DNA of 64,000 bases from Escherichia coli (GTDB lineage: Bacteria > Pseudomonadota > Gammaproteobacteria > Enterobacterales > Enterobacteriaceae), in the NCBI RefSeq assembly GCF_002854065.1, contig NZ_CP024147.1. One strand, 5' to 3'. Below are positions 39,501-42,500 of the stretch, in pieces (the stretch's first letter is position 1; every line of letters begins with the position of its first letter). The position numbers are program-made.

Positions 39501-42500
39501 GGCATTATCGCCGTTGCTCCATTGCATGGGCGTGCGGCTGTTGTCACGGGATTTACTGGCGAGGATTGCCAATAACTCGTCGGCATCACGACCATCGTTG
39601 CGCAGCTCGGCAAACATATTGAGGCTCTCCACGTCGCGATAGTCAGTAATGCGCGTGAAATGCGGGTTGGTCATGCCAATCTCTTCGCCCTGGTAGATAT
39701 ACGGCGTTCCCTGCATGCCATGCAGCACCATCGCCAGCATTTTTGCCGCAGGCACGCGGTATTCACCTTCATCACCAAAGCGAGAAATAATGCGCGGCTG
39801 ATCGTGGTTACACCAGAACAAGGCATTCCATGCCACGTTGTGCATTCCTTGTTGCCAGTGGCGGAACAATGTTTTCAACGCCACAAAGTCAGGTTTAGCC
39901 AGCGTCCATTTTTCACCACCGGGATAATCGACCTTCAGGTGATGAAAATTAAAGGTCATCGACAATTCACTGCCTGTCAGTGCCGCGTATCGCTGGCAAT
40001 GCTCAAGGCTGGTGGAGGACATTTCACCTACGGTCATTAACCCGCGTGGCGTAAACACATCGCGGTTCATCTCGTGCAAAAACTCGTGTGCTCGTGGCCC
40101 GTCGGTGTAGAAGCGACGCCCGTCGCCATCCAGGTCATCAGGGAAACGTGGGTCTTTGGAGATCAGATTCACCACATCCAGGCGCAACCCGTCGACCCCA
40201 CGATCGGCCCAGAACTCACAGACTTTTTTCAGCTCTGCGCGTACCGCTGGATTCTCCCAGTTGAGATCCGCCTGCTCTGGTGCAAAGAGATGCAAATAGT
40301 ACTGTTCGCTTTCCGCATGCCAGCGCCACGCACTACCGCCAAATTTTGAACGCCAGTTGTTCGGTGGCGTTTCTGGTTCGCCATCGCGCCAGATATAAAA
40401 CTGGCGGTAAGGGCTTTCTTTGTTCAGCGCCTCGCGAAACCAGGCATGTTGGGTAGAGGTATGGTTAAACACCATATCGAGAATGATACGAATCCCGCGC
40501 GATTTTGCCTGCGTCACCAGTTCGTCAAAATCGTCCAGCGTGCCGTAAGTGGGATCAATCGCCGTATAGTTCGCTACGTCGTAACCGTTATCGACCTGGG
40601 GAGAGACATAAAAGGGGGTTAGCCAGATGGCATCAACGCCCAGTTTATGCAGATAGCCCAGGCGTTGGATAACGCCACGTAAATCGCCGGTGCCGCTACC
40701 CGTGGTGTCCTGAAAACTCTTTGGATAAATCTGGTAGATAACGCCGTTTTGCCACCAGTGGGGAAGATTAGTCATTACGTTATTCCTGCAAATGCGAGAG
40801 GGCGCAATTGCGCCCCGAAGAAAATTAAACAATGTCCAGCGTGCCCAGGCGGTATTTCCGCTGATAGATAAACGAGGTGAGTACAATCGGGATGATGATG
40901 GCGATAGCCATTGCCAGCGCAAACACCTGCCAGTAGCTCGGTTGAATCGAGAGAATTCCCGGCAGGCCGCCTACGCCGATGCCATTCGCCATAACGCCGT
41001 TCAGGCCGCATAGCAATCCTGCCAGACCAGAACCAATCATCGCGCACAGCATCGGGAAGCGATATTTCAGGTTGATGCCGTACATTGCAGGCTCAGTGAC
41101 CCCAAGCCAGGCGGAGATAGCGGCAGGCACGGAGATCTCGCGTTCATTGTGCTTGCGGCTGGAAATGATAATGCCTATCACGGCGGAGCCCTGAGCGATA
41201 TTCGACAGCGCAATCAGCGGCCACACTGGCGTGCCACCCATGCTTTGAATCATCTGCAAATCAATAGCAAGGGTGGTCTGGTGTACGCCGGTGATCACCA
41301 GCGGCGCGTACAGGAAGCCAAACAATGCCGCACCAATCGGAGCAAAGCTGCCGGTCATCAGGTGACGTACCGCAAAGGCAACGCCATCGCCAATCATGCG
41401 ACCAAACGGACCAATCAGCGCATGGGCGAGGAACACCGCGAGGATCAGCGAACAGACGGGTACCACCACCAGATAGAGGTAATCCGGCACGATGCGTTTA
41501 AGGCGAGTTTCAATAACGCCCAGCGCCAGTCCGGCTAACAGTGCCGGGATCACCTGCGCCTGATAGCCTACTTTGGCGATGCTGAACATGCCAAAGTCCC
41601 ACACTTCCGGCAGCTGCTGCCCGAGCAGATAAGCGTTCATCAGCTGTGGAGAAACCAGTGTCACGCCAAGCACGATACCGAGGATCGGCGTGCCGCCCAT
41701 TTTTTTCACCGCTGACCAGCAAATCCCGACCGGCAGGTAGAAGAAGATCGCTTCACCGATCAACCACAGAAAATCGTAGATCGTTTGCAGGGAAGGGTAC
41801 ATTTGCGCCAGCGTTTGACCGTTGCTCATGGGCAAATCGCCGATCACATTGCGAAAACCGAGGATCAAACCGCCGCTAATCAACGCGGGCAGCAACGGGA
41901 AGAAGATCTCCGCGAAATGAGAGATCAACTGCTCATGCCATTTCATATTCTGCCGGGCGGCTTTTTTTACCTGCTCTTTATCAACCTGCGCCTGTCCGGT
42001 TGACGCTATTAGTGCTTGATAGTAATCACCCACATTGGTGCCAATCACCACCTGAAATTGCCCGGCATTGGTGAAACAGCCTTTCACCATGGGGAGTTGC
42101 TCAATTTCTTTCGGTCTGGCATTGGCCGGTTGGTTGAGGACAAAGCGCAGGCGAGTAATACAGTGGCTCACTGTCGCAATATTGCCGCGCCCGCCGACCA
42201 GTTCAATCAACCGATCGATATCCGTTTGGTTTATTTTGCTCATCATAAAGCCCCATGGCAGATGACATTTTTGGTTGGCTGCAGAATATATTGCGCGGAA
42301 AAATTTAAAAACGGGAACGTTCCCGAAACGCAGCGAAGATCACAATTTATCGTTCAGGAAACGATCAGGACAGGGTGGCGGGGATGATGATTTGTTGCGG
42401 TTCGCTGCGCCCGGTTACCTGTGCGATCAACTGGCAGGCCGCCTGGCGTCCAGCTTCGGCGTAACCAGGATCTACGGTGACGATCTCCGGATGAAGGAAT

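What the first reader, a model, noticed from the sequence alone, without database searches (positions are those of the whole stretch)
42312..42325. Perfect 14-bp palindrome CGGGAACGTTCCCG upstream of treB
A perfectly symmetric LacI/GalR-type operator lies between treR and treB, consistent with the TreR binding site that controls treBC.
Basis: partly seen in the sequence, partly recalled or inferred. Interest (0 to 1): 0.25.

Follow-up and report, generated by a model that had tools for sequence, protein, structure and literature searches.

The report
TreR repressor operator at treB promoter
The palindrome is real and is almost certainly the known docking site where the trehalose repressor TreR switches off the E. 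coli trehalose uptake genes treBC, so it is a correct but ordinary, textbook-type finding.

Summary
The 14-bp perfect palindrome CGGGAACGTTCCCG is at window 42312..42325. It lies in the 118-bp spacer between treR (42365..43312, minus) and treB (40825..42246, minus), 79 bp upstream of the treB ATG. The locus is E. coli mgtA / treR-treB-treC.

A perfect 14-mer palindrome is not significant on its own: about 5 are expected per 64 kb and 8 are seen. Context and conservation make the case.
- The 12-bp core GGGAACGTTCCC is exact upstream of treB in 81/81 Enterobacteriaceae loci while the flanks drift.
- It stays with treB when foreign genes separate treR from treB.
- It recurs upstream of the PTS gene next to TreR orthologues only 36-47% identical, whose recognition helix (KSTVSRV) is invariant.
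- It sits at fixed spacing between an invariant TGTGATC (CRP-type half-site) and a TAnnnT -10, abutting the likely -35.

Best reading: it is the TreR (LacI-family) operator, and it represses a CRP-dependent promoter until trehalose-6-phosphate releases TreR.

The rival reading, a treR terminator hairpin, is weak (-7 kcal/mol in E. coli, about -5.3 elsewhere, no covariation). The finding is already known and of low interest. I could not retrieve the published footprint.

The parts
42312..42325 (.). TreR box. The perfect 14-bp palindrome is CGGGAACGTTCCCG. The conserved core is the inner 12 bp, GGGAACGTTCCC (42313..42324), centred at 42318/42319.
   Evidence: Sequence and uniqueness. Core exact in 81/81 treB loci. 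Every core position at 2.0 bits. Best TreR-box matrix score in the window, 24.3 bits. Same core in loci of TreR orthologues 36-47% identical.
42365..43312 (-). treR, a LacI-family repressor gene (315 aa). Its stop codon lies 39 nt before the palindrome.
   Evidence: PF00356, PF13377; PDB 4xxh TreR; the HTH and hinge align without gaps to LacI residues 4-58.
40825..42246 (-). treB, the PTS trehalose EIIBC gene and first gene of the regulated treBC operon. Its ATG is at 42244..42246.
   Evidence: PF00367 + PF02378.
42326..42347 (-). CRP-type site AATTGTGATCTTCGCTGCGTTT (minus-strand reading). The left half-site TGTGATC (42338..42344) is invariant and the right half is poor. Its centre is 18 bp upstream of the palindrome centre.
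   Evidence: positions -20..-14 invariant in 80 distinct sequences; fixed spacing to the core. Assignment to CRP is an inference from the consensus TGTGA-N6-TCACA and from the glucose control of treBC reported in PMC3938415.
42306..42311 (-). T-rich hexamer TTTTTA directly after the palindrome. It is the likely -35 element, 17 bp from TATTCT. It is also the 'U-tract' of the rival terminator reading.
   Evidence: +14 and +15 are T in 100%, +16 in 97%, +17 in 91%. The position relative to the -10 is inferred from the sequence.
42283..42290 (-). -10 region. TATTCT (42283..42288) matches the conserved TAnnnT. An overlapping TATATT (42285..42290) is the better hexamer in E. coli.
   Evidence: T+37 96%, A+38 100%, T+42 100%, at a fixed 24 nt after the core in all genera.. 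The transcription start was not determined here.
42349..42365 (-). Small hairpin ATCGTTTCCTGAACGAT directly after the treR stop, followed by AAATT. It is the more likely remnant or seat of a treR terminator.
   Evidence: -5 to -6.6 kcal/mol in E. coli. At the same place L043 and L044 have GCGTC..GACGC and GCCTC..GAGGC followed by TTTATT (-9.7 and -10 kcal/mol), that is, compensatory changes.
42355..42370 (.). Very weak TreR-box-like 16-mer CAGGAAACGATCAGGA, 44 bp from the main site and overlapping the treR stop codon. It is the only candidate for a second site.
   Evidence: 0.6 bits, rank 92 of 63,985 in the window. Not conserved outside Escherichia. Listed only because RegulonDB is said to hold two TreR sites (PMC3505978).

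Best explanation
The palindrome is the operator of the trehalose repressor TreR. A TreR dimer (LacI/GalR family) binds the symmetric core GGGAAC|GTTCCC: each helix-turn-helix reads one half-site, and the hinge helices meet over the central CG.

The box lies between a CRP-type site and the -10 and abuts the probable -35. If the conserved TAnnnT is the -10 at -12..-7, the box centre is near -42 and the CRP centre near -60, a class-I-like layout. Bound TreR would therefore prevent RNA polymerase and CRP from forming a productive complex at the treBC promoter. Trehalose-6-phosphate, made when TreB imports trehalose, releases TreR, and cAMP-CRP then activates transcription.

What is shown here:
- the sequence and its position;
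- its absolute conservation, and its linkage to treB rather than to treR;
- the co-conservation of the box with the TreR DNA-reading residues.

What is inferred:
- the physical binding;
- the promoter coordinates;
- the steric mechanism.

What comes from the literature: the identity of the inducer and the repression of treBC by TreR.
For: (1) Locus identity. The query is 100% identical to E. coli treR-treB, and 5419 of 5426 complete genomes cover at least 80% of it.

(2) The regulator is a LacI-family protein with a canonical HTH and hinge.

(3) The core GGGAACGTTCCC is exact upstream of treB in 81/81 loci from about 20 enterobacterial genera (TreB 86-97% identical, TreR 79-100%). Neighbouring spacer columns fall to 0.0-0.7 bits.

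(4) Natural experiments.
- In Enterobacter L040 and L074 about 1.7 kb (in L040 an Hcp gene plus an unknown ORF on the opposite strand) separates treR from treB.
- In L032 a 752-aa opposite-strand ORF occupies the upstream region and there is no treR within 2.5 kb.
- In all three the box stays about 87 bp before treB. In L040, the one read directly, the sequence after the treR stop carries no box.
- In Trabulsiella L009 a second exact core precedes a treB N-terminal remnant, with no treR upstream.

(5) Distant orthologues. TreR-like regulators 36-47% identical, with treR-PTS IIBC (and, where the contig extends that far, an alpha-amylase-family gene) in the same order, carry TTGGGAACGTTCCCAT, ACGGGAACGTTCCCAT, ATGGGAACGTTCCCAA or ATGGGAACGTTCCCTA before the PTS gene. 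Two lineages carry two near-copies.

(6) K18-S-T-V-S-R-V24 and P50/S53-A-R55 are invariant in these orthologues although overall identity is 35-47%. Met or Leu occupies the position of the LacI Leu56 lever.

(8) Literature.
- Trehalose-6-P is the inducer, and trehalose stabilises operator binding (bioRxiv 10.1101/2025.04.02.646877).
- treR and treB show the strongest anti-cofitness (PMC5443562).

(9) It is the top match to a TreR-box matrix in the window, 24.3 bits against 11.1 for the next.
Against: - No binding experiment could be consulted. The primary papers are not in the held library, so the published footprint position is unverified here.
- The symmetric part (12-14 bp) is shorter than the 16-22 nt typical of LacI-family motifs.
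- RegulonDB reportedly lists two TreR sites, and I can find only one convincing site in E. coli.
- The promoter coordinates rest on an inferred -10, not on a mapped transcription start. The tool's sigma-70 scan found no consensus promoter in the spacer, as expected for an activator-dependent promoter but not proof of one.
- The same sequence followed by T5 also scores as a terminator-like hairpin on the treR strand.
Confidence: 0.93

Rival explanations
1. The palindrome is, or also serves as, the intrinsic terminator of treR. On the treR/treB strand the RNA would form CGGGA-ACGU-UCCCG followed by UUUUUAAAUUUUU and stop read-through from treR into treBC. The confidence given is for a measurable terminator role in addition to the operator role. 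A terminator-only reading I put below 0.03.
For: - The terminator scan flags exactly this site: 5-bp stem, 4 GC pairs, 4-nt loop, T-run. One such site was found against 0.4 expected in shuffles.
- The hairpin is the minimum-free-energy structure of the local RNA (-7.0 kcal/mol, 72% of the ensemble).
- It lies 39 nt after the treR stop.
- The outer G:C pair, found mostly in Escherichia, lengthens the stem from 4 to 5 bp.
Against: - The hairpin is weak and no better than shuffled sequence (z = -0.96, 35 of 200 shuffles as good). In most genera it is a 4-bp stem of about -5.3 kcal/mol.
- All 12 core positions, including the would-be loop ACGT, are invariant and show no covariation. A genuine RNA hairpin in the same operon, in the treB-treC spacer, keeps its stem but varies its loop freely, with about 20 loop variants.
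- The T-run is equally explained as the -35 hexamer at 17 bp from the conserved -10.
- When treR and treB are separated, the element stays with treB.
- In distant lineages it sits 32-38 bp before the PTS start codon or upstream of the regulator gene itself.
- Several genera have a separate hairpin with compensatory changes right after the treR stop.
Confidence: 0.12
2. The site is an operator, but for a regulator other than TreR, for example another LacI/GalR paralogue or a global regulator that recognises a similar CG-centred palindrome.
For: - LacI-family boxes resemble one another.
- An unrelated actinobacterial LacI-family regulator, CebR2, is reported to use the identical consensus TGGGAACGTTCCCA (PMC9953190). 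The sequence alone therefore does not name the protein.
- No binding data could be read here.
Against: - The box co-occurs with a TreR orthologue in every distant locus examined that has an adjacent PTS gene.
- The box and the TreR recognition helix are invariant together.
- treR knock-outs derepress treB-dependent phenotypes, and treR/treB are the top anti-cofit pair (PMC3938415, PMC5443562).
- No other comparable match exists in the 64-kb window.
Confidence: 0.03
3. It is a chance palindrome with no function.
For: Perfect palindromes of 14 bp or more are expected about 5 times per 64 kb at this composition, and 8 are present.
Against: - Twelve consecutive invariant columns in 80 distinct sequences, while the adjacent spacer drifts.
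- The exact core reappears in loci whose TreR is only 36-47% identical.
- Only about 0.009 such palindromes are expected in a 118-bp spacer.
Confidence: 0.01

Closest known systems
TreR operator of the E. coli treBC promoter (Horlacher & Boos 1997, J Biol Chem 272:13026; catalogued in RegulonDB)
   Same: Same organism, same spacer, same regulator and same regulated operon. This is in all likelihood the very site. The literature available here confirms that TreR represses treBC, that trehalose-6-P induces, and that trehalose stabilises operator binding.
   Different: I could not read the primary paper, so the exact published coordinates are unverified. RegulonDB is said to list two sites, and only one strong site is detectable by sequence.
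Generic LacI/GalR-family operators (lacO, PurR box, CcpA cre)
   Same: [quoted passage not shown] The TreR HTH and hinge align without gaps to LacI residues 4-58.
   Different: The symmetric part is 12-14 bp rather than 16-22 nt. The half-site GGGAAC is G-rich, unlike the TGnAAnC-type half-sites. TreR has Met57 where LacI has the Leu56 lever.
CebR2 and CelR boxes of actinobacterial LacI-family cellobiose regulators (TGGGAACGTTCCCA; TGGGA(A/T)CG(A/T)TCCCA)
   Same: The 14-nt consensus reported for S. scabiei CebR2 is letter for letter the TreR-box consensus seen here across lineages, and it also precedes a sugar transporter operon (PMC9953190, PMC3377646).
   Different: Different phylum, different effector (cellobiose) and an ABC rather than a PTS transporter. 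The relatedness of the DNA-binding heads was not tested here.
Class I CRP-dependent promoters with a repressor site between CRP and the core promoter
   Same: An invariant TGTGA half-site 18 bp upstream of the operator centre. With the inferred -10, the CRP centre falls at about -60 and the repressor box at about -42, overlapping or abutting the -35.
   Different: The right CRP half-site is poor and variable, and the transcription start was not mapped here, so the coordinates are uncertain by 2 bp or more.

Membership tests
LacI/GalR-family operator (TreR box) | Even palindrome with a central CG step | tested here: met
   CGGGAAC|GTTCCCG, 7+7 perfect with a central CG. Criterion from PMC4052901.
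LacI/GalR-family operator (TreR box) | Cognate LacI-family regulator encoded at the locus | tested here: met
   treR: PF00356 LacI HTH, E = 2.5e-21, plus Peripla_BP_3/1. PDB 4xxh TreR, E = 2.5e-168. RefSeq annotation.
LacI/GalR-family operator (TreR box) | [quoted passage not shown] | tested here: met
   79 bp upstream of the treB ATG, and 68-210 bp in 80 other loci. Fixed 24-nt distance to a conserved TAnnnT.
LacI/GalR-family operator (TreR box) | Phylogenetic footprint: conserved in orthologous regulatory regions and co-occurring with the regulator | tested here: met
   Exact 12-bp core in 81/81 Enterobacteriaceae loci and in 5 loci of TreR orthologues 36-47% identical. Near-copies in 3 more.
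LacI/GalR-family operator (TreR box) | Typical motif length of 16-22 nt of symmetry | tested here: not met
   Symmetry ends at 14 bp in E. coli and at 12 bp in most genera. The flanks TTTC and ATTT are conserved but not symmetric. This is a typical rather than a strictly defining feature.
LacI/GalR-family operator (TreR box) | Direct, effector-sensitive binding by the regulator (EMSA or footprint) | not testable with these tools
   Primary papers not held. Secondary sources state only that TreR represses treBC and that trehalose-6-P induces.
Rho-independent (intrinsic) terminator of treR | Stable GC-rich stem-loop followed by a U-tract | tested here: inconclusive
   E. coli: 5-bp stem, -7.0 kcal/mol, U5, but z = -0.96 against shuffles. 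Most genera: 4-bp stem, about -5.3 kcal/mol, with 3-6 T in the next 8 nt.
Rho-independent (intrinsic) terminator of treR | Conservation of structure rather than sequence (loop free to vary, compensatory stem changes) | tested here: not met
   All 12 positions are invariant. Contrast the treB-treC hairpin, which has about 20 loop variants, and the hairpin after the treR stop, which shows compensatory changes.
Rho-independent (intrinsic) terminator of treR | Stays at the 3' end of the gene it terminates | tested here: not met
   In L040 and L074 treR ends about 1.78 kb upstream and in L032 it is absent, and the element remains next to treB in all three. In L040 nothing similar follows the treR stop.
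Class I CRP-activated promoter | CRP site centred near -61.5 (or -72.5 etc.) relative to a mapped transcription start | tested here: inconclusive
   Invariant TGTGATC. The centre lies 18 bp upstream of the box centre and 48.5 bp upstream of the first base of the conserved TAnnnT, which places it at about -58.5 to -61.5. The right half-site is poor and the transcription start was not determined.

The most novel reading that the evidence does not exclude
The element is bifunctional. As DNA it is the TreR operator, and as RNA on the treR transcript it is a weak terminator. In that case the outer G:C pair found mostly in Escherichia would tune insulation of treBC from treR read-through. Separately, the letter-for-letter identity of the TreR-box consensus with the actinobacterial CebR2 box could reflect an ancient shared DNA-reading head, or convergence, between two disaccharide-sensing LacI subfamilies.
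Probability: 0.12. Interest if true: 0.3.

Novelty: already known. Interest (0 to 1): 0.12.

Why it matters
It matters little beyond correct annotation. TreR control of treBC has been characterised since the 1990s, and the site is catalogued in regulatory databases.

The modest added value here:
- The conserved recognition unit is the 12-bp core GGGAACGTTCCC, consensus tGGGAACGTTCCCa, rather than the 14-mer found mostly in E. coli.
- The box is fixed, together with the TreR recognition helix, across orthologues down to about 36% identity.
- Comparative data give a clean promoter anatomy: CRP half-site, 18 bp, TreR box, -35-like T-run, -10.
- Natural gene insertions separate the operator reading from the terminator reading.

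Tried and rejected
(1) Palindrome statistics alone. Rejected as evidence: 8 perfect palindromes of 14 bp or more are observed against about 5 expected.

(2) Retrieving the published footprint. Klein 1995 (PMC177135) and Horlacher & Boos 1997 (by PMID and by DOI) are not held. Full-text searches for the sequence, 'TreR operator', 'treB promoter' and 'recognition code' found no paper that gives the E. coli TreR site.

(3) The search for homologous proteins with TreR returned only relatives at least 85% identical in the listed top 120, which was no use for distant comparison. The 50%-clustered representative search was used instead.

(4) Second TreR site in E. coli. A matrix scan finds only a 0.6-bit candidate at 42355..42370, and it is not conserved. 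I neither confirm nor exclude it.

(5) The sigma-70 consensus scan found no promoter in the spacer. The promoter elements were therefore inferred from conservation instead.

(6) An Rfam scan of 40500..44000 found no RNA family over the site, only the Mg riboswitch ahead of mgtA.

(7) L082 was discarded as a comparator because it is a C-depleted (0.4% C), apparently bisulfite-converted assembly.

(8) L088 is too short to carry any context.

(9) The terminator reading was considered seriously and downgraded.
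Full report
**1. The observation**

- CGGGAACGTTCCCG is present once in the window, at 42312..42325, with no other match at up to 2 mismatches.
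- It is a perfect even palindrome of 7+7 bases with a central CG. The symmetry stops there: the next five base pairs on each side do not pair.
- The flanking genes are on the minus strand: treR at 42365..43312 and treB at 40825..42246, followed by treC. mgtA is on the plus strand at 43691..46387.
- The stretch is 100% identical to an E. coli chromosome. 5419 of 5426 complete E. coli genomes cover at least 80% of the query.
- Read on the minus strand, the palindrome begins 39 nt after the treR stop codon and 79 nt before the treB ATG. 'Between treR and treB, upstream of treB' is therefore correct.

**2. Is it more than chance?**

The palindrome alone is not. The window holds 8 perfect palindromes of 14 bp or more, against a mean of about 5 in Markov-1 random sequences of the same composition. 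The significance comes from context:
- About 0.009 such palindromes are expected in a 118-bp spacer.
- It scores 24.3 bits against a TreR-box matrix built from sites of several lineages. The next best 16-mer in 64 kb scores 11.1. The matrix includes this site's own sequence, so its score is partly circular.
- Its conservation is absolute (section 3).

**3. Comparative evidence within Enterobacteriaceae**

A scan of one genome per species with TreB returned 80 loci from about 20 genera (TreB 86-97% identical).
- Including L001 (the annotated E. coli record fetched), the 12-bp core GGGAACGTTCCC is present, exact, upstream of treB in 81 of 81 loci. It lies within 400 bp and usually 80-92 bp before the start codon.
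- The perfect 14-mer is seen in only 7 loci. 71 have CGGGAACGTTCCCA. The conserved unit is therefore the 12-bp core, and the outer pair is mostly an Escherichia feature.

Anchoring the 80 distinct sequences on the core gives this conservation profile, numbered from the first base of the core:

| Position | Element | Conservation |
|---|---|---|
| -20..-14 | TGTGATC | invariant |
| -4..-1 | TTTC | 97-99% |
| +1..+12 | core GGGAACGTTCCC | invariant |
| +13 | A or G | A in 89% |
| +14..+17 | TTTT | 91-100% |
| +18..+36 | variable spacer | mostly below 0.7 bits |
| +37..+42 | TAnnnT | T 96%, A 100%, T 100% |

I read this as follows:
- TGTGATC is a CRP-type left half-site, centred 18 bp upstream of the box centre.
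- The core is the repressor box.
- The T-run is a weak -35 (TTTTTA in E. coli), 17 bp from TATTCT.
- TAnnnT is the -10.

If the -10 occupies -12..-7, the box centre is at about -42.5 and the CRP centre at about -60.5. Using the overlapping TATATT of E. coli shifts both by 2 bp. These coordinates are inferred; the transcription start was not mapped. The consensus sigma-70 scan found nothing in the spacer, which fits an activator-dependent promoter.

**4. Operator versus treR terminator**

The scan tool flags the palindrome plus TTTTTAAATT on the minus strand as terminator-like, and the local RNA does fold into that hairpin (-7.0 kcal/mol). Five lines of evidence count against a terminator as the main function.

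- (a) The hairpin is weak. It is no better than shuffles (z = -0.96), and in most genera it is a 4-bp stem of about -5.3 kcal/mol.
- (b) Every position is invariant, including the would-be loop ACGT, and there are no compensatory changes.
  - In the same loci, the 16-bp palindrome in the treB-treC spacer (window 40800..40815) behaves as an RNA hairpin should. It keeps the stem GGGGCGC/GCGCCCC in 60 of 80 loci while the loop takes about 20 different sequences.
  - The small hairpin directly after the treR stop shows compensatory stem changes: GCGTC..GACGC in L043 and GCCTC..GAGGC in L044, each followed by TTTATT.
- (c) There are natural experiments.
  - In Enterobacter L040 and L074, about 1.7 kb lies between treR and treB. 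In L040 this carries an Hcp (type VI secretion) gene and an unknown ORF on the opposite strand.
  - In L032 a 752-aa opposite-strand ORF occupies that space, and no treR is found within 2.5 kb.
  - In all three the box, with its TGTGATC partner, stays about 87 bp before treB. In L040 nothing like it follows the treR stop.
- (d) In Trabulsiella L009 a second exact core precedes a 37-codon remnant of a treB N-terminus, far from any treR 3' end.
- (e) The T-run is accounted for as the -35 element.

A minor additional terminator role in E. coli cannot be excluded. I give it about 0.12.

**5. Distant orthologues**

A search of 50%-clustered representatives gave full-length TreR-like proteins 37-52% identical in the search listing. 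The full-length alignment puts those used below at 35-47%. Their contigs show the same gene order: regulator, PTS EIIBC and, where the contig extends far enough, an alpha-amylase-family hydrolase. The sequence before the PTS gene is:

| Locus | Site(s) | Note |
|---|---|---|
| L083 | TTGGGAACGTTCCCAT | |
| L084 | ACGGGAACGTTCCCAT | TGTGAT lies upstream, as in E. coli |
| L087 | ATGGGAACGTTCCCAA | |
| L090, L091 | ATGGGAACGTTCCCTA | |
| L085, L086 | TGGGAACGATTCCA and TGGGAACGTTACCA | two sites, 46 bp apart |
| L089 | TGGGAACGTTACCA, twice | 58 bp apart, upstream of the regulator gene, which there heads the operon |

The consensus is therefore tGGGAACGTTCCCa.

In an alignment of these proteins (35-47% identical to E. 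coli TreR overall), several features are invariant:
- the recognition helix K18-S-T-V-S-R-V24;
- the hinge residues P50 and S53-A-R55;
- Met or Leu at the position that aligns with the LacI Leu56 lever.

An invariant box paired with an invariant reading head across a diverged protein is what a cognate operator predicts.

**6. The literature that could be read**

[quoted passage not shown] - treR and treB are the top anti-cofit pair in E. coli fitness data (PMC5443562).
- RegulonDB is said to list two TreR sites at treBC (PMC3505978).
- The primary papers with the footprint are not in the held library.
- From my own recollection, unverified here, the 1997 paper reported TreR binding to a palindrome in the treB promoter region.

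**7. A second site?**

The only other TreR-box-like 16-mer in the spacer is CAGGAAACGATCAGGA at 42355..42370.
- It lies 44 bp from the main site and overlaps the treR stop codon.
- It scores 0.6 bits, rank 92 in the window, and it is not conserved outside Escherichia.
- Two-box arrangements do exist in other lineages, 46 and 58 bp apart, so a weak auxiliary site is conceivable but unsupported.

**8. Comparison with known systems**

This is the known TreR operator of treBC. It is a member of the LacI/GalR operator class in every feature I could test except the length of its symmetric part (12-14 bp rather than 16-22 nt).

The consensus is letter for letter the 14-nt box reported for the actinobacterial LacI-family regulator CebR2, and close to the CelR/CebR boxes (PMC9953190, PMC3377646). 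The sequence alone therefore does not identify the protein. The identification rests on synteny and on the co-conservation of the box with TreR.

**9. Verdict**

- Mechanism: TreR binds the box and represses a CRP-dependent promoter by occupying the region between the CRP site and the -35. Trehalose-6-phosphate relieves the repression.
- Confidence that this is the TreR operator: 0.93.
- Novelty: already known.
- Interest: low, about 0.12.

Noticed in passing
window 40800..40815 (minus-strand transcript, treB-treC spacer): A 16-bp perfect palindrome GGGCGCAATTGCGCCC lies in the 49-bp spacer between treB and treC. The stem GGGGCGC/GCGCCCC is kept in 60 of 80 enterobacterial loci while the loop takes about 20 different sequences. 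This is RNA-hairpin-style conservation, and it may be an intra-operon stabiliser or attenuator.
   Followed up: partly
window 43482..43597 (+): A magnesium riboswitch (Rfam RF01056, 125.8 bits, E = 3e-26) lies in the leader of mgtA, divergent from treR. mgtL is annotated in the matching RefSeq record.
   Followed up: no
L040 637..2400; also L074 and L032: In some Enterobacter species about 1.7 kb of foreign DNA lies between treR and the treB promoter. In L040 it carries a type VI secretion Hcp gene (PF05638, E = 1e-27) and a 230-aa ORF with no Pfam hit, both on the opposite strand. In L032 a 752-aa ORF with no Pfam hit occupies the same place.
   Followed up: partly
L009 543..735 (Trabulsiella odontotermitis): A second exact GGGAACGTTCCC lies 68 bp upstream of a 37-codon ORF, MLKINQQDIDKLIELVGGRENIATVSHCITRLRFGLR*, which looks like a truncated copy of the TreB N-terminus. 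It appears to be a duplicated promoter-plus-5'-end remnant about 900 bp upstream of treR.
   Followed up: partly
L085/L086 2745..2895 and L089 618..689: Some distant TreR-orthologue loci carry two TreR-like boxes in tandem. L085/L086 have TGGGAACGATTCCA and TGGGAACGTTACCA 46 bp apart. L089 has TGGGAACGTTACCA twice, 58 bp apart, upstream of the regulator gene itself. This suggests cooperative or looping repression and autoregulation in those lineages.
   Followed up: partly
L082 (Logan SRR18107613): This contig is 0.4% C and 50% T, and the box reads GGGAATGTTTTT. It appears to be an assembly of bisulfite-converted reads of a Klebsiella-like genome, and its protein (P0126) is therefore an artefact in the protein libraries.
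   Followed up: partly
literature: PMC9953190, PMC3377646: The consensus box reported for the Streptomyces scabiei LacI-family regulator CebR2, TGGGAACGTTCCCA, is identical to the TreR-box consensus derived here. The Acidothermus CelR-like site TGGGA(A/T)CG(A/T)TCCCA is also close.
   Followed up: no
window 56694..56717, 11229..11246, and 12799, 13719, 35027, 52166: Other perfect palindromes are present in the window: AAGGCCGGAGCATGCTCCGGCCTT (24 bp), AGCGAAATCGATTTCGCT (18 bp) and four 14-mers. None was examined.
   Followed up: no
window 39120..40922 (-): The mechanical ORF list extends treC to a TTG at 40922 (600 aa), overlapping treB. The RefSeq annotation and the Pfam match fit the 551-aa product that starts at 40775.
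   Followed up: yes
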